Shown here: in pieces, positions 1-17,352 of the stretch
How positions within the stretch are numbered: position 1 is the first letter of the stretch
Layout: the number at the start of each line of letters is the position of its first letter
Source of the DNA: Candidatus Portnoybacteria bacterium
Lineage (GTDB): Bacteria; Patescibacteriota; Minisyncoccia; RBG-13-40-8-A; JAUWHN01
DNA length: 27,381 nucleotides
Direction: 5' to 3'
Assembly (NCBI GenBank): GCA_030605865.1
Contig: JAUWHN010000011.1
Span: 1 to 27,381, forward strand
Position numbers and translations under genes: made by a program
Notes under the pieces: model-generated
What the model was told of the DNA's origin: nothing
Database searches by the model: none
What the model saw: only the letters and a program-made list of their open reading frames with translations

Positions 1-843
1 GGCGGTGATACTAATGGCGACGGGGATTGGGCTGAGCATTGTAGGACAAAAGATCCTGATGACAATACTTATCGCGATTGCCCCGAAGCCGGTGAGTGGG
101 GGCAGATTATTTTTACTCCCACTTCAACTAATTCTTCTTTAAAATATGCGATTATCAGATACGGAGGACGAGAGTGGGCCGAGGCGCCGGTTCACTCCAG
201 ACCGGATTACGTTTTAAAAATTGAGGACAGTGATTTGACTTTAGCCGATTCAATAATTGAAGATAATACTGGCGGATTTGAGCTCACAAATTCTAATTCT
301 CTTATAGCCAGAACAACTTTTAGGGATCATCGGTATTCTATGCCTTTTAGTTCTTGGGTTAGCACCGGTCTTCGCTTGGTTTCTTCCAGGCCGACAATTG
401 ATTTTGCTACTTTTTTAAACAACAGTTTAGGCCTCTATATTGATCCCTTTTCTTGGCCAACTTTACTTAATTTAGTTTTTGACTGGAACAATAGAGATGC
501 TCAAGATTTGCGGCCCGAACCAGAACCCGAGCCGGAAGCCAATGTAGAAATAATTTATATTTTTTATGATGGGGTAGAGGAAGGCGAGGCAGATGAGTAT
601 GTGGAGATTGAAAACACTGGGGACGCGGCAGCGGATTTGGAAAACTGGACTTTAAGCGACGAAGCCGAGCATACCTATACTTTTCCATCTTATAATTTAG
701 AACCCGGCCAGAGTATAAAAGTTTATACCAATATGGGAGAATTCAGTTTTGGAAGAGGCGTAGCCGTATGGAACAACACCGGCGGCGACACGGCTTATTT
801 GAAGGATGGGGAAGGGGAGTTGGTTGATAGTTATAGTTATTGA
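1..843 (+). CDS. 5'-truncated large surface/secreted protein with C-terminal lamin-tail (LTD)-like domain
   Basis: Frame 1 is open from base 1 (GGDTNGDGDWAEHC...GEWGQIIF...SLKYAIIRYGG), so the ORF-track start at 235 is not the true start. A PEPEPEP linker precedes EYVEIENTG...DLENWTLSD...YTFP...LEPGQSIKVYT...VWNNTGGDTAYLKD, typical of LTD. Confidence 0.8.
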   Translation, partial: GGDTNGDGDWAEHCRTKDPDDNTYRDCPEAGEWGQIIFTPTSTNSSLKYAIIRYGGREWAEAPVHSRPDYVLKIEDSDLTLADSIIEDNTGGFELTNSNSLIARTTFRDHRYSMPFSSWVSTGLRLVSSRPTIDFATFLNNSLGLYIDPFSWPTLLNLVFDWNNRDAQDLRPEPEPEPEANVEIIYIFYDGVEEGEADEYVEIENTGDAAADLENWTLSDEAEHTYTFPSYNLEPGQSIKVYTNMGEFSFGRGVAVWNNTGGDTAYLKDGEGELVDSYSY

Positions 844-880
844 AATAAGGGCATTTCTGTTGGGGTTTAAGGATTTACTT

Positions 881-909
881 TTGACATTATTTTAGGATTA
901 TGATAGGAT
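881..909 (+). promoter_or_regulatory. sigma70-type promoter, cassette 1
   Basis: TTGACA(881-886)-17 nt-TAGGAT(904-909) with extended -10 TG; SD AAGGAGG at 933-939. Confidence 0.75.
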
Positions 910-944
910 AGAACGTTGAGCTATCTTTAACAAAGGAGGGACAA

Positions 945-1280
945 TTGTCCAAGAAAAAAGAAATAGAATGGGAAAGCTGGGGTGTTCAACCTCGCGAAGA
1001 TGGCGTTAAACGAATCACAGATCCTTTTCATTGTCTTTATTGTAACTGTACCTCATCCGAGTTAACATTTCATCAGTTTATGATTGGATATTCAGCAGAT
1101 ACAAACTTTATAGTAATGGAATGTCCAGGATGTTTTGGAAAATTTTATCATCACATTGATCAAGGTAATATTAATGCAGTTACGCTTATAGTAGAAGATG
1201 GAAACAAGGACTTTTTTAAAGTTCCTGGCACATATGAAAAACTTTCAAAAATGATTGAGAGACAAAAAAAGAAGAAATGA
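945..1280 (+). CDS. small hypothetical protein, probable Zn-binding (CxxC...CxxC); cassette 1
   Basis: TTG start 5 nt after AAGGAGG; CLYC and CPGC motifs; own promoter and terminator. Confidence 0.75.
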   Translation: MSKKKEIEWESWGVQPREDGVKRITDPFHCLYCNCTSSELTFHQFMIGYSADTNFIVMECPGCFGKFYHHIDQGNINAVTLIVEDGNKDFFKVPGTYEKLSKMIERQKKKK

Positions 1281-1319
1281 GGGGTTTTTTAATTAAGCCA
1301 AAAAGACCTCTCTTTTTTT
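1279..1319 (+). terminator. rho-independent terminator, cassette 1
   Basis: GAGGGGTTTTTT pairs with AAAAAGACCTCTC (with G-U pairs), followed by T7. Confidence 0.7.
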
Positions 1320-1345
1320 ATCCCCAAAACTTTCGGAGGCGTATA

Positions 1346-1376
1346 TTATTTATTCCTCCAACTCAATAAATGGCGT
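1346..1376 (+). repeat. junction repeat copy 1 (truncated after half of the palindrome)
   Basis: TTATTTATTCCTCCAACTCAATAA (1346-1369) is identical to 1576-1599, followed by ATGGCGT. Confidence 0.85.
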
Positions 1377-1378
1377 AG

Positions 1379-1406
1379 TTGACAACTTATTCCAACTCGT
1401 TATACT
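1379..1406 (+). promoter_or_regulatory. sigma70-type promoter driving a non-coding unit
   Basis: TTGACA(1379-1384)-16 nt-TATACT(1401-1406). Confidence 0.7.
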
Positions 1407-1411
1407 AGAAG

Positions 1412-1580
1412 TAGTTAGTACCTTTTGGGAAACGCCTAAGAATTATCTGCCTCTCAATCTCATTCTAAGCTTAAGCATCTATATCTCCACTTTTAGCTTA
1501 TTGTTTAAGCGAAGGCTATGGCGTTTCCCACCTGTTCTTTTATCGAAATATTGCGCCCTTGTTTCGGCAAGGGCCTTATT
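1412..1580 (+). ncRNA. putative structured small RNA of unknown family (RNA cassette)
   Basis: Own promoter; perfect 11-bp closing stem TGGGAAACGCC(1426-1436)/GGCGTTTCCCA(1520-1530); inner stem GCTTAAGCA(1469-1477)/TGTTTAAGC(1502-1510); terminator at 1555-1574; no sizeable ORF on + strand. Confidence 0.55.
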
Positions 1581-1584
1581 TATT
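1555..1584 (+). terminator. terminator of the RNA cassette
   Basis: GCCCTTG-TTTCGG-CAAGGGC followed by a T-rich tract (CTTATTTATT). Confidence 0.65.
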
Positions 1585-1689
1585 CCTCCAACTCAATAAT
1601 AATATGGCGTCATTCAATGACGCCATATTACGTAAAAGGTGGTCAATTACTTGACAAAACATTGGGATGGGAGTATAATGAAAAGTAAG
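1576..1689 (+). repeat. junction repeat copy 2 (about 110 bp: TTATTCCTCCAAC box + 31-bp palindrome + promoter)
   Basis: Aligns to 2691-2796 at roughly 80% identity by manual alignment, with one 4-nt indel; perfect palindrome 1600-1630; promoter TTGACA(1651-1656)-17-TATAAT(1674-1679). Confidence 0.9.
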
Positions 1690-1719
1690 TCAAAAATCAA
1701 AACAAGGAGGTATTAACAA

Positions 1720-2190
1720 ATGAAAAAAACAAAATTCTGGTTGGAACTTCTGTTTGGCTTGTTGCTTCTTTTTCTCGCAATCTTTTTGGTACACGTTGGT
1801 GTAAGTGAAAAAGTAGATATCGACGACTTGGTACTCTTTTATGTTTTTGCGGCCCTCTTTTTCTTTATAGGTGTGCTTTTTCTTATGGCGGCAGGTGGTT
1901 GCATGGCGAGAGGATTTCGGAGAGATTATTTATTAGATAGGATGGAATACAGAAAAGACATTGAATCTCGTGGCAAAGGCAATGACTATGTCAGATTGTT
2001 ATTATCCGAAGCTGATAAAGAGAATAGCTTTCATCCTTCTATAAGTTTCCATTCAATCCACGGCGGTCAGCTTTTAGACAAAAACGGCCATATGTTAACG
2101 AAGCTTCCAGAAACCTTTCTTGTAAGGAAGACGGAAAAAGAAGGAAAAACCGTATATCATATTTTGCCAACCAGAACAAATGAAGCGTAG
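1720..2190 (+). CDS. hypothetical membrane protein (two N-terminal TM helices plus soluble domain); cassette 2
   Basis: SD AAGGAGGT at 1704-1711; two hydrophobic segments; own promoter and terminator. Confidence 0.75.
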   Translation: MKKTKFWLELLFGLLLLFLAIFLVHVGVSEKVDIDDLVLFYVFAALFFFIGVLFLMAAGGCMARGFRRDYLLDRMEYRKDIESRGKGNDYVRLLLSEADKENSFHPSISFHSIHGGQLLDKNGHMLTKLPETFLVRKTEKEGKTVYHILPTRTNEA

Positions 2191-2203
2191 CTTCTGAATT
2201 CTC

Positions 2204-2241
2204 GGGGGTCAGGATTTCGGTCTTGCCCCCCCCTTTTTTTT
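2204..2241 (+). terminator. rho-independent terminator, cassette 2
   Basis: GGGGG-T-CAGGAT-TTCG-GTCTTG-CCCCC followed by T8; UUCG loop. Confidence 0.8.
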
Positions 2242-2270
2242 ATCCTCAAAACTTTCAAGGGGTAAAAGTA

Positions 2271-2298
2271 TTGACAAATTATTGGATTGTGATAGAAT
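2271..2298 (+). promoter_or_regulatory. sigma70-type promoter, cassette 3
   Basis: TTGACA-16-TAGAAT with TG extension; the 26-nt segment starting GGATT matches the cassette 1 promoter at 23/26. Confidence 0.75.
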
Positions 2299-2339
2299 AG
2301 AATGTTGAGTTCTTAAATAATTTATTTTCAGGAGGAATT

Positions 2340-2621
2340 ATGACAGTAAAAGAAAAAGATAAAAAAAGTGTAGTGGTTCTTATTAACTCAGACCCTAGTG
2401 TTAAGGATAAGATTAATAACACAATCCGTGAATTTCTTAAAGAAAAAGGATTAACGACTGGGAAAGAACCCATAGATAAGCCTATTTCAAGCCCATTTAT
2501 TGTTTTTGTCCTTAAAAGAGAGCAGATTGTCTCTCTTAATTTATCTCTTTTTAAAAAAGAATTTTCTGAGAAAACAGGTTTTGTTGCTGAAGAGAATTTT
2601 ATAGTCGTAATCAGGCATTAA
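2340..2621 (+). CDS. small hypothetical protein; cassette 3
   Basis: AGGAGG at 2330-2335; promoter upstream and terminator downstream. Confidence 0.7.
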   Translation: MTVKEKDKKSVVVLINSDPSVKDKINNTIREFLKEKGLTTGKEPIDKPISSPFIVFVLKREQIVSLNLSLFKKEFSEKTGFVAEENFIVVIRH

Positions 2622-2651
2622 TAAAAATCTTAGAGATAAACCAAGTCTTTT

Positions 2652-2692
2652 TAAGCCCCTGGTTCAGGTCAACTGTACTGGGGTGCTTTTTT
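2652..2692 (+). terminator. terminator, cassette 3
   Basis: AAGCCCCTGGT...ACTGGGG-T-GCTT followed by a T-run. Confidence 0.7.
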
Positions 2693-2796
2693 ATTCCTCC
2701 AACTTAATAAATGGCGTCATTGAATGACGCTATTTTACGCAAAGAGCAGTTAATTGCTTGATAAATTATTGGTATGGGTGTAAAATGGAAAGTAAG
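2691..2796 (+). repeat. junction repeat copy 3 (box + palindrome + promoter of cassette 4)
   Basis: Homologous to 1580-1689; palindrome AAATGGCGTCATT-G-AATGACGCTATTT (2709-2735); TTGATA(2758-2763)-17-TAAAAT(2781-2786). Confidence 0.9.
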
Positions 2797-2833
2797 CGTG
2801 GTGCTTATGATTCTTTAACAAAAGGAGTAAACA

Positions 2834-3121
2834 ATGAATGAAACAGAATTTAAAGCAGGAGAACTTTACAAGATTATTGATGTAGGAGAAGGATCTATTG
2901 CTTATCATCCAAACAAAGATGATTATATTAACAAGATAGTTAAACTTATTTATTTCTTTGGCAAGTGGAAAAGCGGCTGGGTAGGATGCAATATTACTTT
3001 CCAGCAGGACTTCACATTGACAGATAAGAGAACTGGAAAAAAAATTCATCGTAAAAAAGGATGGTGGGCTTCTTTTCACGAGGTCAAATTAGAAAAAGTC
3101 CAAATCTTTCTTCTCTACTAA
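2834..3121 (+). CDS. small hypothetical protein, possibly SH3-like beta-barrel; cassette 4
   Basis: SD AAGGAG at 2822-2827; pattern FKAGELYKII...KIVKLI...W..F..VKLEKV. The fold assignment is inference only. Confidence 0.7.
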   Translation: MNETEFKAGELYKIIDVGEGSIAYHPNKDDYINKIVKLIYFFGKWKSGWVGCNITFQQDFTLTDKRTGKKIHRKKGWWASFHEVKLEKVQIFLLY

Positions 3122-3183
3122 GCCCCTAACTCATCAACCTTTATAATGGGTTGTCCAAAACAAATGAGTTAGGGTGCTTTTTT
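3119..3183 (+). terminator. terminator / structured element, cassette 4
   Basis: CCCTAACTCAT(3124-3134)/ATGAGTTAGGG(3164-3174) 11-bp stem, inner CAACC/GGTTG, then T6. Confidence 0.75.
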
Positions 3184-3195
3184 ATTTCAAAACCC

Positions 3196-3224
3196 TTGAC
3201 AAAATATTGATATGGGTGTATAAT
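3196..3224 (+). promoter_or_regulatory. sigma70 consensus promoter, cassette 5
   Basis: TTGACA-17-TATAAT; 26/30 identical to the cassette 2 promoter (1651-1680). Confidence 0.85.
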
Positions 3225-3290
3225 GTAGATATTGAAGAGTGTGGAAGTTCCACAAATCTTTTCTTTGACAATTTTTATTGGAGGAAAAAG

Positions 3291-3566
3291 ATGAAAACTT
3301 CTAAGAAAGTTTTGATTATTGTCTTAGTGTTTACAGTCTTTTTAATATTCATATTGATATTAGCGGCTTATGGGAGTTGGATTGTAAATGCGGTTGTTCA
3401 TGTAGCTACTGCTCTTTTTCAGGGGATTGTTTCTCTGTTTGAGTTTATTTTCTACCCGGATGGATTTTTCCAGCTTTTCGGACCCGTTGGTTCCGGCTTG
3501 GTTATTGGCTTGATAATGGTCTTGATGGTTTTGATTGTTAGGAAACTTTTAGTAATAAAAGTGTAG
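3291..3566 (+). CDS. small membrane protein (two hydrophobic segments); cassette 5
   Basis: GGAGG at 3280-3284 puts the start at ATG 3291 (MKTSKK..., 91 aa), not the GTG at 3174 in the ORF track, which lies upstream of the promoter. Confidence 0.75.
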   Translation: MKTSKKVLIIVLVFTVFLIFILILAAYGSWIVNAVVHVATALFQGIVSLFEFIFYPDGFFQLFGPVGSGLVIGLIMVLMVLIVRKLLVIKV

Positions 3567-3597
3567 TAGGAAATAAGTCATTATTTGAAACAAGAAT

Positions 3598-3630
3598 GGG
3601 GGCTACTTAATAAAGTAGTCCTTTCGTTTT
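3598..3630 (+). terminator. terminator, cassette 5
   Basis: GGGGCTACT-TAATAA-AGTAGTCCT followed by TTCGTTTT. Confidence 0.65.
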
Positions 3631-3657
3631 AATGTTATTTCAAAGAGGGGAATTTTA

Positions 3658-3685
3658 TTGACACCTTTATTTCATTTGTTATACT
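3658..3685 (+). promoter_or_regulatory. sigma70-type promoter driving a hairpin RNA
   Basis: TTGACA(3658-3663)-16-TATACT(3680-3685) with extended -10 TG. Confidence 0.7.
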
Positions 3686-3691
3686 AAATTT

Positions 3692-3765
3692 GCCGGCGGA
3701 CTAGCACCCACAAAAGACGTAGATTTGGGGTTTGTACTTCCGCCGGCTTTCGGTTTTAAAAAGCC
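3692..3765 (+). ncRNA. putative small hairpin RNA or regulatory leader, unknown family
   Basis: Perfect 9-bp GC stem GCCGGCGGA(3692-3700)/TCCGCCGGC(3739-3747) starting at the predicted +1; alternative pairing GGCTTT/AAAGCC (3745-3765). Confidence 0.45.
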
Positions 3766-3813
3766 ACCTCGCAAAATTGGTGATGAGATGGATAATATGA
3801 TAAAATATAAAAG

Positions 3814-5775
3814 ATGAGGAAGATAGCGAAAATTTCAACTGTTATTGTTGTTTTGTTTTTTGTTTTTCATATTCCGGTTTCTTTTGCTGATATTCTGGGC
3901 GAGAGCAAGACTTTTAACGTTGATTCAACTTATGATTCCGAGGGAAGAACTCAAGTTGTTGCCACTGTTAAGCGTGTTAGCGAACGGGCTTATTTTTATA
4001 TAGAAAATAAATGGTGGAATTCATTAAATTCTTATGAAAGGAGCCAGGCCGAGGAAAGCTTAAGGAGTTTGGCCACTGAATTCGATGAAGTTATTTATCC
4101 GGAATTAACTGAGTTTTTCGGCGATATCTGGGATCCTGGAATTGATAATGATTCCCGGATTACTATTTTAATGACCGAGCTTGAAGAAAACGCTGGCGGC
4201 TATTTTAATTCCTGCCATGAGTATACTCGTTCTCGCTGCAGCCGCTCCAATGAACGGGAAATGATTCATGTTAATGTTGACTTTATTTTTGATCGCAAGC
4301 TCAAAGGATTTATTGCTCATGAATTGCAGCATTTGATTAGCTGGAATCAGAAAGAAAAGATAGCTGTGCTTAAAGAGGATATATGGTTGAACGAGATGAG
4401 GAGCGAATATGTTTCCAGTTTACTCGATTATGACGACCCCTATTCGGAAAGCATGTTGGAAATGAGAGTAAAGAACTTTTTGGACGATCATCGTAATCCC
4501 TTGGGAGAATGGAAGGGAGAGTCAGGCGATTACGGAGTAATTGCTCTTTTGGGGAATTATATAGCTAATCAGTTTGGCGAGAATTTATTTTCTTTAATGT
4601 CTAAAAATAATTTAGTTGGTATAACCAGTATTAATAAGGCCTTTCAGGAAGCTGGCTATACTGAGGATTTTGGTGAAGTTTTTACTAACTGGAGCCTGGC
4701 TAATTATTATAATAGTTTGGCAATAGGTCGGGGTGGAAAATATGGTTATACCAATCCGTATCTTAAAAGAATTCATATTTCACCAACCTTAAATAGATTT
4801 TATTCTTACAGCGTTGTTAATTTTTCAGAGGAAGTCAAAGATTGGTCTCCTCGTTGGTATCTGTTTCAAAATAAATTATCTTCTCAAGACGAATCCATTG
4901 CTTTAAAAATAGAATTCGAGAGTTCTAATCAAAAAACTAATTTTAGAGTGCCTTATGTGATTCATTATAAAGATGGTAGCTATGAAATAGGGCATTTTAT
5001 AAATCTCGAGAATCAGGCTGGGGCTGTTTATATCTTTAATTTTGCCAAAGATGTCGGGTCCGTGTTAGTGGTGCCAGCAAATCATTCAAAAACAGCTAAT
5101 TTTACTAATAGTGATTCTTCAACCCGATTTACCCTGAAAGCTTCAACAGTTGTTGTTAATCAACCAGTGATTAGCAGTATTTCTCCTTCTGAAGGCCCGC
5201 TCTCTGGTAATAATACAGTTGTGATTAAAGGAGGTAATTTTCAAAGAGGAATTGAAGTTTATTTTGGCGGGGTGAAATCTCCAAATATTGTTTTTATAAA
5301 TGAAACGACATTGAATGTCGTTATTCCTCCCCATGAAGCTGGTTTTGTTAATGTTTGGTTAAGAAATCCTGATGAAAAAAGCAGTGTTTTTGCTCAAGGA
5401 TATGAGTATAGCAGGGGCATTATTACTGACGGTTCATTAATCAGGGCTAGAGGCGATTACAAAGTTTATATTGTCCAGGGCGGATACAAGCGTCATATTT
5501 TGGACGGCAGTATTTTTGATTTTTATGGGCATTTGAACTGGGCAAATATTATAGAAGTAACTCCGGAAGAACGGGATTTTTACAGAGACAGTGCCTGGTT
5601 CAGGGCAGCTGGCGATGCCAAAGTTTACGAAGTCAATAATGACAAGACCAAGCACTGGCTCAATATGACTGCTGAAGAGTTTTATGTTTCGGGCAGGAGA
5701 TGGGAAGGGGTTTTTGTAATAAATAATCAAGAGAGAGATTTTTATAGGACAGGAGCGAGCGTGCTTTATAGATAG
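3814..5775 (+). CDS. secreted zinc metalloprotease-like protein with IPT/TIG domain and C-terminal repeated surface domain
   Basis: Signal peptide (..VSFA/D); HELQH (HExxH) plus downstream WLNEMRSE; ISSISPSEGPLSGNNTVVIKGGNF (IPT/TIG); duplicated C-terminal GDYKVY/GDAKVY repeats. Confidence 0.75.
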   Translation: MRKIAKISTVIVVLFFVFHIPVSFADILGESKTFNVDSTYDSEGRTQVVATVKRVSERAYFYIENKWWNSLNSYERSQAEESLRSLATEFDEVIYPELTEFFGDIWDPGIDNDSRITILMTELEENAGGYFNSCHEYTRSRCSRSNEREMIHVNVDFIFDRKLKGFIAHELQHLISWNQKEKIAVLKEDIWLNEMRSEYVSSLLDYDDPYSESMLEMRVKNFLDDHRNPLGEWKGESGDYGVIALLGNYIANQFGENLFSLMSKNNLVGITSINKAFQEAGYTEDFGEVFTNWSLANYYNSLAIGRGGKYGYTNPYLKRIHISPTLNRFYSYSVVNFSEEVKDWSPRWYLFQNKLSSQDESIALKIEFESSNQKTNFRVPYVIHYKDGSYEIGHFINLENQAGAVYIFNFAKDVGSVLVVPANHSKTANFTNSDSSTRFTLKASTVVVNQPVISSISPSEGPLSGNNTVVIKGGNFQRGIEVYFGGVKSPNIVFINETTLNVVIPPHEAGFVNVWLRNPDEKSSVFAQGYEYSRGIITDGSLIRARGDYKVYIVQGGYKRHILDGSIFDFYGHLNWANIIEVTPEERDFYRDSAWFRAAGDAKVYEVNNDKTKHWLNMTAEEFYVSGRRWEGVFVINNQERDFYRTGASVLYR

Positions 5776-13320: not shown

Positions 13321-13400
13321 CAGCATTTTTATAGTATGCTATATTGGAAAGTGATATACTGAATATAACCTAACACTCTCGATTGGGAGAGAGAAAAAAT

Positions 13401-14441
13401 ATGACATTTAAAAGACTTCAGTCAGAAGTTTTAAAGAGGGTGGAGGAACTTCTAAATAATTTACCCAAGGAGCGCTTAAAGGATGTTATTGAGCGCAGAT
13501 TTGGTTTAAAAGACGGCAATCAAGAAACCCTTGAGGCCGTAGGGAAAGATTACGGCATAACCAGGGAACGGGTTCGCCAGATTGAATCCGATGCTTTAAG
13601 AATTTTAACCGAGCGTCAGAACTTGGCTGTTCTTAAGCCGATTTTTGAATATCTTGATAAGCTTTTCGAGGAACACAATCATTTAGTAGGAGAAGAGCGT
13701 CTTCTTAATTTAGTTACCGGCATTTCCGAATCTCATCCGGCTCGAGCAGCCGTGGTTATGATTTTGACTCTGGGAAAACCTTATCAAAGATTTGTGGAAT
13801 GTGATAAATTTTATCCTCATTGGATAACTAAAAGGCAAGCCAGAAAGCAAGCTGAAAGAGTTATTGATTATTTAGCAGGACATTTTAACCAGCAAAGCCA
13901 GGCCGTTCCTTCTGCCGAGGTATTAACTATTATTTCTTCAAAGCATTCGGATTTTTCCGAGAAATTTATTAAGAATGCCTTAGATATTTCTAAAAAAATT
14001 AGTAAAAATATTTTTGAAGAAGTAGGCTTAAGCCACTGGCCGGAGATTAATCCTAAAGGAGTTCGGGACAAGGCATATTTGGTTATGAAGAGAGAAGGCG
14101 AGCCTCGTCATTTTGTTGATATTACAGAGTTAATTAATAGAGCTAATTTTTCCGACCGCCAGGCTTTTCCCCAAACCGTTCATAATGAATTAATAAAGGA
14201 CGGACGATTTATTCTTGTTGGTCGGGGCACTTATGCTCTTAAAGAATGGGGTTATGAACCAGGAATAGTTAAGGAAGTAATTGCCAAAATTTTATCCGAA
14301 GCTGGTAAGCCTCTTAATCGAGATGAGATTGTTTCAACTGTTTTAGAGCAACGTCGAGTTAGGCCAAATACAGTCGTTATTAATCTCCAAAATAATCCGG
14401 AGTTTGAAAGACTCGAAGATGGAAGATACGTGTTAAAATAA
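13401..14441 (+). CDS. sigma70 region-4-like HTH protein with C-terminal winged-HTH (HARE-HTH/RNAP-delta-like) domains
   Basis: RRFGL...[21 protein letters not shown] (region 4.2); [23 protein letters not shown]; promoter TTGACA(13317)-17-TATATT; ATG 13401 preferred over TTG 13383. Confidence 0.75.
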
Positions 14442-15765: not shown

Positions 15766-17352
15766 ATGAATGAAGAAATAACAACTTTTGCCGAAACCAA
15801 CTTCCGCAATAAGCGGACTAAGTTTGGCATTAAAATCGACGATCGTCGGCGTCATTGTTACATAGTTGGAAAAACCGGTATGGGTAAGACCGTAATGTTG
15901 GAGAATATGGCCATTCAGGATATTCAGTGTGGAAACGGAGTGGCCGTAGTTGACCCTCATGGAGAGTTTGCCGAGCGGATGCTGGACTTTGTTCCCAAGG
16001 ACCGGATTAATGATGTTATTTATTTTAATCCGGCAGACCAAAAAAATCCCATTGCCTTTAATGCTATTGAGCAAGTTGCTCCCGAGCACAGGCATTTAAT
16101 TGCCTCTGGTTTAATGGGGGTTTTTAAGAAAATCTGGCCAGATGTTTGGAGCGCCCGGATGGAATATATTTTACATAATTCAATTTTAGCTCTACTGGAA
16201 TATCCCGGCTCGACCCTTTTGGGTATTAACAGGATTTTAGCTGATAAGGATTATCGAAATAAAGTTATTGAAAAAATAACCGATCCTACCATAAAGTCTT
16301 TTTGGACTAATGAATTTGCCAAATATCCGGATAGATTTCGCGAGGAGGCCGTAGCTCCTATTCAAAATAAAGTTGGCCAGTTTATTTCTGCTCCTTTAAT
16401 TAGAAATATTATCGGCCAGACTACTACTGCCTTTAATATTAGAGAGATTATGGATGAGAGAAAGATTTTAATTGTTAATCTTTCCAAAGGAAAAATAGGC
16501 GAAGATGCTAGTCATCTTTTAGGTGCCTTAATTGTTACCAAGCTTCAATTAGCTGCTATGAGCCGGGTTGATATACCCAAAGAAGAAAGAAATGATTTTT
16601 ATCTTTATGTTGATGAGTTTCAAAATTTTGCTACTGAAGCTTTTGCCAACATTTTATCCGAGGCAAGAAAATACCATCTTTGTTTAATTTTGGCTCATCA
16701 ATACATTGCTCAGCTGGTATCACTGGAAAATACCAAAGTTAGAGATGCTATTTTTGGAAATGTCGGAACTATTCTGACTTTCCGAATAGGGGCAGCTGAT
16801 GCCGAGTTTTTAGAGAAAGAATTTTTACCGGAATTTAATGCTGATGATCTGGTTAATTTAAAAAAGTACAGTATTTATTTGAAGCTAATGATTGACGGTG
16901 TTGCTTCGCGGGCTTTTAGCGCTTCTACCTTAGCTCCTTTTCTCAAGCCAACCAAGACTCACAAAGAGAAAATTATAAAGCTTTCCCGAGAACGCTATGG
17001 AACCGAAAGAAAGAAGATTGAGGAAAAAATTGCTAAATGGAGCGAAGCAGTGATAACAGCAGCCACAGCAAAAGATAAGCCCTATGAAGCAGTTTGTTCT
17101 ACTTGCAACAAAAAAATCAGGGTTTCTTTCAAGCCCGATGGAGTAAGACCGGTTTATTGTCCGACTTGTTTAGAAAAAGCGAGAGCAGAGGGGGCCAGGG
17201 AAAAACCTCCTGCCCCTGAAAGCCCGCCTGCTCCTGAAAGAAAACCAGCCCAAGGCCGGTCGGCCCCGGGCCGAAAGAGAAAGGAAGTAGACATCAAGGG
17301 TTTGCGAAGCGTTTTAGCAGAATCATTAGAAGATACAAAAAAAGAAAAATAG
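15766..17352 (+). CDS. VirD4/TraD/HerA-like P-loop ATPase with C-terminal CxxC-x17-CxxC zinc finger
   Basis: Walker A GKTGMGKT, VVDPHGE, Walker B LYVDEFQNF, SEARKY, AIFGNVGT; CSTC-x17-CPTC. Confidence 0.85.
   Translation: MNEEITTFAETNFRNKRTKFGIKIDDRRRHCYIVGKTGMGKTVMLENMAIQDIQCGNGVAVVDPHGEFAERMLDFVPKDRINDVIYFNPADQKNPIAFNAIEQVAPEHRHLIASGLMGVFKKIWPDVWSARMEYILHNSILALLEYPGSTLLGINRILADKDYRNKVIEKITDPTIKSFWTNEFAKYPDRFREEAVAPIQNKVGQFISAPLIRNIIGQTTTAFNIREIMDERKILIVNLSKGKIGEDASHLLGALIVTKLQLAAMSRVDIPKEERNDFYLYVDEFQNFATEAFANILSEARKYHLCLILAHQYIAQLVSLENTKVRDAIFGNVGTILTFRIGAADAEFLEKEFLPEFNADDLVNLKKYSIYLKLMIDGVASRAFSASTLAPFLKPTKTHKEKIIKLSRERYGTERKKIEEKIAKWSEAVITAATAKDKPYEAVCSTCNKKIRVSFKPDGVRPVYCPTCLEKARAEGAREKPPAPESPPAPERKPAQGRSAPGRKRKEVDIKGLRSVLAESLEDTKKEK

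What the first reader, a model, noticed from the sequence alone, without database searches (positions are those of the whole stretch)
881..3765. Array of autonomous promoter-RBS-ORFan-terminator cassettes joined by mosaic homologous repeats
Seen: seven consecutive co-oriented units in about 2.9 kb, comprising five unrelated short ORFs (945, 1720, 2340, 2834, 3291) and two RNA-like units (1412, 3692). Each has its own sigma70 promoter, the first six end in a terminator, and all five ORFs have a strong GGAG(G) site. The intergenic DNA is built from shared blocks: a ~110-bp repeat (1580-1689 ~ 2691-2796), TTTTTTTATCC[C/T]CAAAACTTTC (1313-1334 ~ 2235-2256), GGGTGCTTTTTTATT (2681-2695 = 3172-3186) and homologous promoters. 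Inference: this looks like a gene-capture or shuffling platform for independently expressed modules. It differs from integron arrays (usually promoterless cassettes with attC) and is closest in concept to the promoter/stem-loop (PeSL) cassettes that shuffle ORFans in T4-type phages, but here it sits in a cellular chromosome. No recombinase is encoded in the window.
Basis: partly seen in the sequence, partly recalled or inferred. Interest (0 to 1): 0.88.

Follow-up and report, generated by a model that had tools for sequence, protein, structure and literature searches.

The report
Shuffled small-gene cassettes in a CPR chromosome
Between two conserved chromosomal genes of a tiny uncultured (CPR, Portnoybacteria-related) bacterium lies a hotspot of small unknown genes, each with its own promoter and terminator. 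Near-identical strains carry different sets and orders of these genes, and the breakpoints fall inside the shared promoter/terminator joints, as in the 'PeSL' gene-shuffling cassettes of T4-type phages.

Summary
Window 847-3770 holds five small ORFs and two small-RNA units. All are co-oriented, each has a near-consensus sigma70 promoter, six end in hairpin/T-run terminators, and the spacers are built from a small kit of repeated blocks.

- A near-conspecific contig (L043; flanks 95-97% identical) and four further metagenome contigs carry the same joints around different cargo and in different orders.
- Two contigs that are 99.94% identical over 5.1 kb differ by one 623-nt cassette flanked by a 36-nt direct repeat of the promoter.
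- Contigs from four cold-seep runs show at least nine alternative joints at the same blocks. Some coexist in one sample.

No integron integrase, attC site or phage gene is involved. The genome has RecA, and its only tyrosine recombinase is Xer-like. Cassette ORFs are real genes that evolve fast: dN/dS is 0.6-1.3, against 0.13-0.23 in the flanks.

The seventh unit (sRNA2, 3692-3765) is not a cassette. It is a hairpin RNA conserved across genera and marks the right border.

The closest known system is the PeSL cassette of T4-type phages, here in a cellular chromosome. This scan has already noted similar arrays in other CPR genomes. I found no paper describing them.

The parts
1..843 (+). Left flank: 3' end of a large LTD-domain (beta-helix) surface protein gene. 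It is conserved at 94.9% nt in L043.
   Evidence: Pfam LTD 2.9e-23. L043 3655-4494 matches at 94.9%. The full gene in L043 has SNase, Beta_helix and LTD domains.
847..1334 (+). Cassette 1: promoter 881-909, RBS AAAGGAGGG, ORF1 945-1280 (111 aa, CxxC...CxxC zinc-ribbon-like), terminator 1280-1320, and the T-run + ATCCCCAAAAC end block.
   Evidence: The whole cassette recurs as L032 3414-3914 (77% nt, 58% aa, dN/dS 0.28) between different neighbours. The four Cys are invariant.
1346..1599 (+). RNA-only cassette: TTATTCCTCCAACTCAATAA block (1346-1369), promoter 1379-1406, structured RNA1 of about 165 nt (about 1412-1575) with terminator 1555-1574, then a second copy of the block (1576-1599).
   Evidence: MFE -45 kcal/mol, z -3.9. 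Homologues in L043, L036 and L055 are 85-90% identical and show 2 compensatory pairs. No Rfam match.
1600..1630 (.). 31-bp perfect palindrome (TAATATGGCGTCATT-C-AATGACGCCATATTA) 20 nt upstream of the ORF2 -35 box. A second copy lies at 2709-2735 upstream of ORF4.
   Evidence: z -6.3. It is conserved in L043, L055 and L032. Its function is unknown; an operator or a second hairpin are possibilities.
1651..2256 (+). Cassette 2: promoter 1651-1679 (12/12), ORF2 1720-2190 (156 aa, two N-terminal TM helices), terminator about 2204-2244, end block TTTTTTTATCCTCAAAACTTTC at 2235-2256.
   Evidence: Six homologues at 49-88% aa. In L036/L044 it sits after ORF4 behind a chimeric promoter. In L055 it sits before ORF4. 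In L046 it is in another genome context.
2271..2695 (+). Cassette 3: promoter 2271-2298 (its 5' half is family-A-like, its 3' half ORF1-promoter-like), ORF3 2340-2621 (93 aa, a singleton ORFan), terminator 2653-2695.
   Evidence: No homologue among 1.84 billion cluster representatives. Absent from L043, L036, L045 and L055. Present in runs X1 and X4.
2687..3186 (+). Cassette 4: TTATTCCTCCAACTTAATAA block + palindrome, promoter 2758-2786, ORF4 2834-3121 (95 aa, predicted all-beta), terminator 3120-3186.
   Evidence: ORF4 is 89% aa identical in L043, L044 and L045 and 79-80% in L056. In L056 the cassette stands alone behind a comM-like gene.
3187..3640 (+). Cassette 5: promoter 3196-3224 (12/12, family A), ORF5 3291-3566 (91 aa, membrane protein), terminator 3598-3632.
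   Evidence: The L043 variant is 148 aa and 63-67% aa identical. After this promoter's -10 box, at least four other downstream sequences occur in runs X1, X2 and X4.
3658..3765 (+). Right border: promoter 3658-3685 plus hairpin RNA 'sRNA2' (3692 to about 3765). It is conserved across five genera and is not part of the variable array.
   Evidence: 81-98% nt identical in G001-G004 and L043, where the neighbouring protein is only 59-72% identical. Two compensatory pairs in the outer stem. Inverted relative to the downstream gene in G001.
3814..5775 (+). Right flank: 653-aa secreted TIG-domain protein gene. It is followed by murB, hpf, secA, secDF and aminoacyl-tRNA synthetase genes, which is a housekeeping chromosomal context.
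   Evidence: L043 is 96.7% nt identical.

Best explanation
The region is a hyperplastic accessory-gene slot in the chromosome of a CPR bacterium of the same GTDB order as Candidatus Portnoybacteria RBG_13_40_8. It lies between a large LTD-domain surface-protein gene and a conserved hairpin-RNA/TIG-protein gene pair.

It is filled with self-contained cassettes of this form: core promoter, 5'UTR with a strong SD, a small ORF or a structured RNA, a hairpin terminator, a T-run and an end block.

The regulatory joints come from a small kit of paralogous modules:
- family-A promoter CTTGACAAAWWATTGRTATGGGTGTATAAT
- the ORF1-type promoter
- T-run + ATCCYCAAAAC
- TTATTCCTCCAACTYAATAA, with or without a 31-bp palindrome
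- the UTR block TCTTTAACAAAGGAGG
- in relatives, the last 30-130 nt of the LTD gene

Because these modules are shared, RecA-type homologous recombination between joints deletes, inserts, reorders and exchanges cassettes. This can happen within a genome or with incoming related DNA. Each gene always keeps a working promoter and terminator.

Shown:
- the anatomy of the array
- five or more different arrangements in the same slot
- breakpoints inside the joints
- one cassette indel flanked by a 36-nt promoter repeat in 99.94%-identical backgrounds
- coexisting variants in single samples
- the same cassettes in other genomic contexts

Inferred:
- that recombination is RecA-mediated, possibly through excised circles
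- that each unit is one transcript
- that the cargo serves fast-evolving host, phage or surface interactions. The cargo is small membrane, zinc-ribbon and beta-rich proteins with dN/dS of 0.6-1.3.
For: (1) The same slot has different content.
- Window: ORF1 | RNA1 | ORF2 | ORF3 | ORF4 | ORF5.
- L043 (flanks 94.9% and 96.7% nt identical): 4.7-kb insert | LTD remnant | 73-aa ORF | RNA1 | ORF4 | ORF5 variant | 137-aa ORF.
- L036/L044 and L045: 73-aa ORF | RNA1 | ORF4 | ORF2 | ORF5.
- L055: X | RNA1 | ORF2 | ORF4.
- L032: LTD remnant | two other ORFs | ORF1 homologue | 184-aa ORF | palindrome block.

(2) There is a clean event. L043 and L044 are 99.94% identical over 5101 nt. L044 has an extra 623-nt ORF2 cassette flanked by a 36-nt promoter repeat, and both copies align to L043 10364-10399.

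(3) Promoters are chimeric. For a given ORF the sequence downstream of the -10 box is constant. The sequence upstream of the -35 box switches between the 'palindrome', 'terminator-AAAACCC' and 'ATCCCCAAAAC...GTA' types.

(4) Public runs show alternative joints at 844->3196, 843->2271, 1324->2247, 2231->1312, 2239->2711, 2789->1704 (three runs), 3221->1704, 2252->1603 and 3231->1310. No contig spans the array.

(5) Cassettes move between contexts. The ORF4 cassette sits behind a comM-like gene (L056), and an ORF2 homologue is in GCA_964620195.1.

(6) The ORFs are real genes that evolve fast. dN/dS is 0.28-0.47 for distant pairs and 0.64-1.3 for close pairs, against 0.13-0.23 in the flanks.

(7) Machinery: RecA is present and the only tyrosine recombinase is Xer-like. 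No serine recombinase was found.

(8) The published PeSL definition and model match this anatomy (PMC2839356).
Against: - There is no direct evidence of transcription, promoter strength or termination.
- The only hints of circular intermediates are 'goes back' joints in contigs. These could equally be other cassette orders or tandem duplications.
- Some joints show only a few shared bases. The 137-aa cassette in L043 enters at the TTGA of the -35 box, so microhomology or older, decayed homology is involved there.
- The evidence from public runs rests on short Logan contigs laid at >=85% identity in metagenomes. Other organisms carrying the same promoter family may contribute.
- Selection would remove breakpoints inside ORFs, so their location in spacers is partly expected.
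- The function of every cargo gene is unknown.
Confidence: 0.75

Rival explanations
1. A site-specific recombination system moves the cassettes. It would be integron-like, Xer-like or HUH/REP-like and would act on the 31-bp palindrome or the TTATTCCTCCAACTYAATAA block.
For: - A perfect 31-bp palindrome sits at a fixed distance upstream of two promoters and is conserved in four related contigs.
- The RNA1 cassette is bracketed by an exact 24-bp direct repeat, and its left copy ends inside the palindrome's first arm.
- Two weak Y1_Tnp-like ORFs exist elsewhere in the genome.
Against: - The palindrome is present at only 2 of 7 joints.
- The mapped breakpoints lie in the core promoter, the T-run/ATCCCCAAAAC block or the LTD tail, not at the palindrome centre.
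- The only tyrosine recombinase scores as XerC/D (218 bits) and far below the integron-integrase cut-off (93 against 265 bits).
- No serine recombinase was found.
- Neither block occurs elsewhere in the genome.
- The cassettes carry their own promoters, unlike integron cassettes.
Confidence: 0.07
2. The array is a degraded prophage or phage-derived early-gene ('moron') region, so the PeSL-like features are inherited from a phage.
For: - The strong-promoter/ORFan/terminator units are exactly the architecture of phage early regions and morons (PMC2839356).
- In one relative an OLD-family defence nuclease sits next to the array.
- GC content is slightly lower (32-36%) than in the left flank (42%).
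Against: - There were no significant PHROG hits beyond a 20-residue TM match.
- No phage structural, replication or integrase genes lie in the window or in L043, L036 or L032.
- The junction patterns have no match in 2.9 million viral contigs.
- The flanks are housekeeping genes, and the slot is occupied in every related contig.
Confidence: 0.06
3. The region is an ordinary variable island. The promoters look alike only because strong promoters converge on one consensus, and the differences between strains arise from unrelated indels and horizontal transfer, with no special role for the joints.
For: - The family-A promoter occurs singly in 10 of the 300 other genomes sampled from the class, and even in Bacilli/Tenericutes MAGs. 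This suggests functional constraint on the spacer.
- Selection against disrupted ORFs biases visible breakpoints towards spacers.
Against: - The other 49 strong promoters in the genome do not share the spacer, except one on C30.
- The homology extends well beyond the hexamers: 80% over 110 bp, plus terminator tails and UTR blocks.
- The L043/L044 indel is flanked by a 36-nt repeat, and the crossovers are in register within the promoter.
- Whole cassettes recur with identical boundaries in other contexts.
Confidence: 0.1

Closest known systems
PeSL (promoter-early stem-loop) regulatory cassettes in the hyperplastic regions of T4-type phages (Arbiol et al. 2010, PMC2839356; Comeau et al. 2014, PMC4122927)
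   Same: - Composite joints of a stem-loop terminator, a near-consensus sigma70 promoter and an SD site.
- The joints lie mostly upstream of ORFans.
- About 100 bp of conservation between copies.
- Insertions, deletions and replacements between close relatives are bounded by the joints.
- Chimeric joints are left after recombination.
- Each gene carries its own expression signals.
   Different: - It sits in a housekeeping chromosomal context of a cellular (CPR) genome, not in a phage.
- There is no sequence similarity to phage PeSLs.
- The kit includes extra modules: a 31-bp palindrome, the TTATTCCTCC block and tail fragments of the upstream gene.
- Two cassettes encode RNAs only.
- Mini-circles are not demonstrated here.
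Chromosomal integrons (intI, attI, attC cassettes)
   Same: A co-oriented array of small, mostly ORFan cassettes at one locus, with content that varies between strains.
   Different: - There is no IntI; the only tyrosine recombinase is Xer-like.
- There are no attC-type sites.
- Every cassette has its own promoter and terminator instead of sharing a single Pc promoter.
Phage 'morons' and Neisseria minimal mobile elements / additive flexible genomic islands (from my own knowledge; cf. PMC4033161 for flexible islands)
   Same: - Morons are promoter-gene-terminator units.
- MMEs and additive islands have conserved flanking genes with alternative cargo exchanged by homologous recombination.
   Different: - Morons lie within prophages.
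- MMEs exchange through homology in the flanking genes, not through internal regulatory joints.
- Here the internal joints themselves are the crossover sites, and several cassettes are stacked.
Orphan-module arrays downstream of polymorphic toxin genes (CDI/Rhs/TpsA; e.g. PMC3848433)
   Same: Displaced 3'-end fragments of the upstream large surface-protein gene are interspersed with downstream cassettes in relatives. L043, L036 and L032 carry a 129-nt remnant and L034 carries two remnants of about 30 nt.
   Different: - The displaced fragment is the conserved LTD tail, not a variable toxin domain.
- No toxin/immunity pairs are recognisable.
- The window itself has no remnant.

Membership tests
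PeSL-type regulatory cassettes | Intergenic composite of a stem-loop terminator and a strong sigma70-like promoter, ending in an SD site and start codon | tested here: met
   Six terminator hairpins and seven promoters with 10-12 of 12 matches, each ORF with GGAG(G)
PeSL-type regulatory cassettes | Copies share sequence over tens to about 100 bp and cluster in a hyperplastic region upstream of ORFans | tested here: met
   80% over 86-110 bp, three or four copies of shorter blocks, and the only promoter cluster in the genome. The ORFs have no Pfam, PHROG, NCBIfam or PADLOC family.
PeSL-type regulatory cassettes | Indels and replacements between close relatives are bounded by the motifs and leave chimeric motifs | tested here: met
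   L043 against L044: 99.94% identical, with a 623-nt cassette flanked by a 36-nt promoter repeat. Chimeric promoters.
PeSL-type regulatory cassettes | Excised mini-circles carrying one cassette and one hybrid motif | tested here: inconclusive
   The 'goes back' joints 2231->1312 (X4) and 3231->1310 (X6), and the reciprocal deletion joint 1324->2247 (X2), are compatible with circles. They are equally compatible with other cassette orders or tandem duplications.
PeSL-type regulatory cassettes | Resident in a T4-type phage genome and used as early promoters | tested here: not met
   The context is housekeeping chromosome (murB, hpf, secA, secDF, aaRS). No match in viral contigs.
PeSL-type regulatory cassettes | Promoter and terminator activity shown experimentally | not testable with these tools
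Integron | Integron integrase (IntI) next to the array | tested here: not met
   There is one Phage_integrase hit in the 91%-complete genome, on contig C1. Its best matches are XerC/D (218 bits) and it scores 93 bits against the integron-integrase cut-off of 265.
Integron | attC sites after promoterless cassettes driven by one Pc promoter | tested here: not met
   Each cassette has its own promoter and an intrinsic terminator. A palindrome is present at only two joints.
Prophage moron | Promoter-gene-terminator unit embedded in a prophage | tested here: not met
   The unit architecture is met, but no phage genes lie in the window or in related contigs.
Polymorphic-toxin orphan array | Displaced 3' fragments of the upstream gene encoding alternative toxin domains with cognate immunity genes | tested here: not met
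   LTD-tail remnants exist in relatives. They are copies of the conserved tail, and no toxin or immunity family was detected.

The most novel reading that the evidence does not exclude
CPR/Patescibacteria possess a general, phage-like mode of gene turnover. In it, portable promoter-terminator joints act as recombination handles that let single self-expressed genes and small RNAs be excised, possibly as circles, exchanged between lineages through natural DNA uptake, and re-inserted at chromosomal hotspots. This would be a main route by which these minimal genomes acquire and test fast-evolving ORFans for host or phage interaction.
Probability: 0.3. Interest if true: 0.85.

Novelty: new variant of a known kind. 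Interest (0 to 1): 0.62.

Why it matters
CPR bacteria have tiny, streamlined genomes, and how they generate and trade accessory genes is poorly understood. This locus shows recombination at reusable regulatory joints shuffling single, self-expressed genes. Until now that mechanism has been described only for T4-type phages.

The evidence reaches strain-level resolution: 99.94%-identical backgrounds differ by one cassette, and several variants coexist in one sample.

The finding has three practical consequences.
- It explains why metagenome assemblies break here. In three of four related genomes the contig ends within 1.5 kb upstream of the orthologous gene.
- It offers a rule for finding such hotspots.
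- It marks a set of fast-evolving small proteins (dN/dS 0.6-1.3) as candidates for host-, phage- or surface-interaction functions.

It also yields natural, compact CPR promoter/terminator parts.

Tried and rejected
**Function of the cargo**
- Pfam, PHROGs, PADLOC and NCBIfam gave nothing for the five ORFs or for five cassette ORFs from relatives.
- ESM Atlas feature searches of ORF2 and ORF3 scored below 0.82, which is uninformative.
- AlphaFold models were poor: ORF4 pLDDT 45, ORF1 pLDDT 60.
- Foldseek on the ORF1 model gave only weak zinc-ribbon-like hits, with TM < 0.45.

**ORF3**
- An exhaustive HMMER search found no relative.

**Exact-protein look-ups**
- ORF1 and ORF4 were not on record.

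**Known RNA families**
- Rfam found nothing for either RNA unit at gathering or E-value thresholds.
- ARAGORN found no tRNA or tmRNA.
- The idea that sRNA2 is a divergent SRP RNA came up because no Rfam SRP hit exists in the genome. No SRP motifs are visible, so I dropped it.

**sRNA2 as a 5' leader or riboswitch of the TIG gene**
- Rejected, because the unit is inverted in G001.

**Phage origin**
- Both junction patterns were absent from viral contigs.

**Metagenome scan with the 20-mer TTATTCCTCCAACTYAATAA**
- 7 of the 10 loci were chance or unrelated matches. Only L034, L036 and L040 were relevant.

**sRNA2:sRNA3 duplex energy**
- It was no better than shuffled controls.

Full report
**1. 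What is there**

The window is a whole 27.4-kb contig (C29) of a 505-kb, 49-contig genome that is 91% complete. A genome of the same order, G005, is identical to Candidatus Portnoybacteria RBG_13_40_8. The organism is therefore a CPR/Patescibacteria bacterium, and the runs that hold its DNA are cold-seep metagenomes. The genes downstream of the region are housekeeping: murB, hpf, secA, secDF and aminoacyl-tRNA synthetases.

Between the stop codon of an LTD-domain surface-protein gene (843) and a 653-aa TIG-domain protein gene (3814), the consensus scan finds seven + strand promoters with 10-12 of 12 hexamer matches. They start at 881, 1379, 1651, 2271, 2758, 3196 and 3658. Genome-wide there are only 54 sites with >=11/12 matches. 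Five of them lie here, and this is the only cluster of four or more within 3 kb.

Five ORFs (945, 1720, 2340, 2834, 3291) follow GGAG(G) sites. Six units end in a hairpin plus T-run.

The long blocks do not occur elsewhere in the genome. One further single cassette with the same promoter family, a membrane ORF, a terminator followed by TTTTTTTATTTCCTCCAAT and an RNA-like unit lies on contig C30.

**2. Comparative evidence**

In four genomes of the same family but different genera, the only conserved DNA from the whole 2.97-kb region is 3658-3812. In three of the four, the contig ends within 270-1440 nt upstream of the orthologous TIG gene.

Protein searches found rare homologues for ORF1, ORF2 and ORF4. 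Their contigs, together with a scan for the 20-mer TTATTCCTCCAACTYAATAA, gave a series of related loci.

| Locus | Relation to the window | Order of units |
|---|---|---|
| Window | - | ORF1, RNA1, ORF2, ORF3, ORF4, ORF5, sRNA2 |
| L043 (18.7 kb) | near-conspecific: LTD gene 94.9%, sRNA2 + TIG gene 96.7% nt, murB follows | 4.7-kb insert (two genes on the other strand), 129-nt LTD-tail remnant, new 73-aa ORF, RNA1, ORF4, ORF5 variant, new 137-aa ORF, sRNA2 |
| L036 = L044, and L045 | 99.8-99.9% identical to L043 | 73-aa ORF, RNA1, ORF4, ORF2, ORF5 |
| L055 | 90% nt over shared cassettes | X, RNA1, ORF2, ORF4 |
| L032 | more distant; ORF1 protein 58% identical | OLD-family nuclease gene, LTD remnant, family-A promoter with two unrelated ORFs, ORF1 cassette, ORF3-type promoter with an unrelated 184-aa ORF, TTATTCCTCC block + palindrome |
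| L056 | other genomic context | ORF4 cassette alone (promoter, UTR, ORF, terminator) behind a comM-like gene |
| L046 | NCBI MAG GCA_964620195.1 | ORF2 homologue (52% aa) among other small ORFs |
| L034 | LTD gene 67% nt | three other cassettes after the LTD gene, the second and third each preceded by a ~30-nt copy of the LTD tail |

In L032 the ORF1 cassette's regulatory ends are conserved even though the protein is only 58% identical.

**3. Where the breakpoints are**

L043 and L044 are 99.94% identical over 5101 nt. Directly after the -10 box of the ORF5-type promoter, L044 carries an extra 623-nt ORF2 cassette. The insert is flanked by a 36-nt direct repeat of the promoter, and both copies align to L043 10364-10399. 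This is the footprint expected from recombination between two promoter copies.

I lined up 20 promoter regions. For a given ORF the sequence from the -10 box to the start codon stays constant. The sequence upstream of the -35 box switches between three types:
- the palindrome type
- the terminator-TTTTTTATTTCAAAACCC type
- the ATCCCCAAAAC...GTA type

ORF2 and ORF5 in L044 therefore have chimeric promoters. The 137-aa cassette in L043 enters exactly at the TTGA of the sRNA2 -35 box. The 4.7-kb insert in L043 is flanked by a 132-nt repeat of the LTD 3' end (94.7% identical).

Logan contigs from four runs in three studies were laid on the window at >=85% identity.
- None spans the array.
- The alternative joints all sit at the junction blocks: 844->3196, 843->2271, 1324->2247, 2231->1312, 2239->2711, 2789->1704 (three runs), 3221->1704, 2252->1603 and 3231->1310.
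- At least four different sequences follow the -10 box of the 3196 promoter.
- In run X1 the window's arrangement and two alternative joints have similar depths, so variants coexist in one sample.

Caveats: these are short contigs, the threshold was 85%, and other organisms with the same promoter family may contribute.

**4. Are the genes real, and what are they?**

Between distant pairs, dN/dS is 0.28 (ORF1) and 0.47 (ORF2). These are therefore coding sequences under selection. Between close pairs it is 0.64-1.3 (ORF2, ORF4, ORF5), against 0.13-0.23 for the two flanking genes at similar dS. The cassette proteins thus evolve under relaxed or diversifying selection.

- ORF1 has four invariant Cys in a zinc-ribbon-like pattern.
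- ORF2 and ORF5 are membrane proteins.
- ORF4 is predicted to be all-beta, at low confidence.
- ORF3 has no relative among 1.84 billion cluster representatives.

No family, defence or phage annotation was obtained.

**5. The RNA units**

RNA1 (about 1412-1575) folds well (z -3.9). It is conserved in three arrays with two compensatory pairs. It behaves as a cassette: it is flanked by a 24-bp exact repeat, and its neighbours differ between relatives.

sRNA2 (3692-3765) is different.
- Its hairpin is 81-98% identical in five genera, where the neighbouring protein is only 59-72% identical.
- Its outer stem has two compensatory pairs.
- In G001 the whole unit is inverted relative to the TIG gene.

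It is therefore an independent, conserved small-RNA gene that marks the right border. It is neither a leader nor a mobile cassette.

**6. Mechanism and rivals**

The genome encodes RecA. It has a single tyrosine recombinase that scores as XerC/D and far below the integron-integrase cut-off. No serine recombinase was found, and there are two weak Y1_Tnp-like ORFs elsewhere. The palindrome is present at only two joints, and none of the mapped breakpoints lies at its centre. The junction motifs are absent from 2.9 million viral contigs.

The family-A promoter occurs at most once per genome in 10 of the 300 other sampled genomes of the class, but four times in this genome. It is not the organism's general promoter consensus.

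The best explanation is homologous, occasionally microhomology-level, recombination between paralogous regulatory joints. This is the mechanism proposed for PeSLs in T4-type phages (PMC2839356; PMC4122927). A site-specific system, a prophage remnant and a static island are each much less likely.

**7. Novelty**

My literature searches found PeSLs described only in phages and nothing on such arrays in CPR.

The scan's own earlier notes report similar promoter/terminator-joint cassette arrays in Saccharibacteria, Uhrbacteria, Nealsonbacteria and another Patescibacteria genome. This is therefore a further, independent instance on other DNA, and those notes were not re-tested here. This case adds unusually clean strain-level evidence, namely the 99.94%-identical pair and the variants coexisting in one sample.

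I class it as a new variant of a known kind.

Noticed in passing
window 3692-3765; G000:C46:3486-3586; L010 114-240; L030 3226-3350 (minus); L007 250-309; L031 7868-7926 (minus): sRNA2 has a conserved partner. In all four same-family genomes a second unit ('sRNA3', about 85 nt) with its own promoter, hairpin and terminator lies directly upstream of sRNA2. In this genome it is on another contig. Its blocks GUGGGUG and UCUAYGUC are complementary to CACCCAC and GACRUAGA in the sRNA2 loop, but in swapped order. The R/Y position co-varies in 5 of 5 genomes. Whole-length duplex energy is no better than shuffled controls. Neither RNA is in Rfam.
   Followed up: partly
L032 192-1976: In one relative the array's left neighbour is an OLD-family ATPase-TOPRIM nuclease (PADLOC Old 6e-28, GajA 6e-24). 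This variable slot can therefore also hold a defence-type gene.
   Followed up: partly
L043 4494-9326: A 4.7-kb insert carries a PsbP_2-like gene and a 1157-aa NosD/beta-helix/NLPC_P60 gene, both on the opposite strand. It is flanked by a 132-nt direct repeat of the LTD gene's 3' end (94.7% identical). L032 and L036 have the same 45-aa LTD remnant preceded by the same hairpin block. L034 has two LTD-tail remnants of about 30 nt between its cassettes.
   Followed up: partly
G000:C30:9500-10230 (minus strand): A second, isolated cassette in the same genome. It has a family-A promoter, a multi-TM ORF of about 155 aa, a terminator followed by TTTTTTTATTTCCTCCAAT, then a promoter-driven RNA-like unit with its own terminator. 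It lies next to ribosomal protein genes.
   Followed up: partly
L048 2147, L053 5352, L049-L054; The extended promoter TTGACAAANNNTTGNTATGGGTGTA is rare but widely scattered. It was found in 7 stretches among the genome contigs of 185,579 species. These include two Bacilli/Tenericutes MAGs and several MAGs labelled Saccharibacteria. It also occurs at most once per genome in 10 of the 300 other sampled genomes of the class. The spacer conservation across such distances is unexplained.
   Followed up: partly
window 1346-1369, 1576-1599, 2687-2710; L043 9420-9641: The block TTATTCCTCCAACTCAATAA reads ...FIPPTQ* in one frame. In L043/L036 the 73-aa ORF ends in it, and short frames in the window (1277-1369, 1501-1599) end the same way. 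It also contains CCUCC, the anti-Shine-Dalgarno core. Whether either point matters is unknown.
   Followed up: no
L010 1173-1272 (G003:C47): In G003 the sRNA2 hairpin appears twice about 150 nt apart, with a run of N (withheld or masked bases) between the copies. In G002, G003 and G004 the contig ends within 1.5 kb upstream of the TIG gene, which suggests the same assembly-breaking variability in other genera.
   Followed up: no
whole genome G000: The Rfam bacterial small SRP RNA model (RF00169) has no match at E<=1 in this 91%-complete genome.
   Followed up: no
window 13383-14441 and 15766-17352: A protein combining Sigma70_r4 and a HARE-HTH domain, and a TrwB/TraG-like coupling-protein ATPase with a treble-clef zinc finger, sit among the housekeeping genes.
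   Followed up: no
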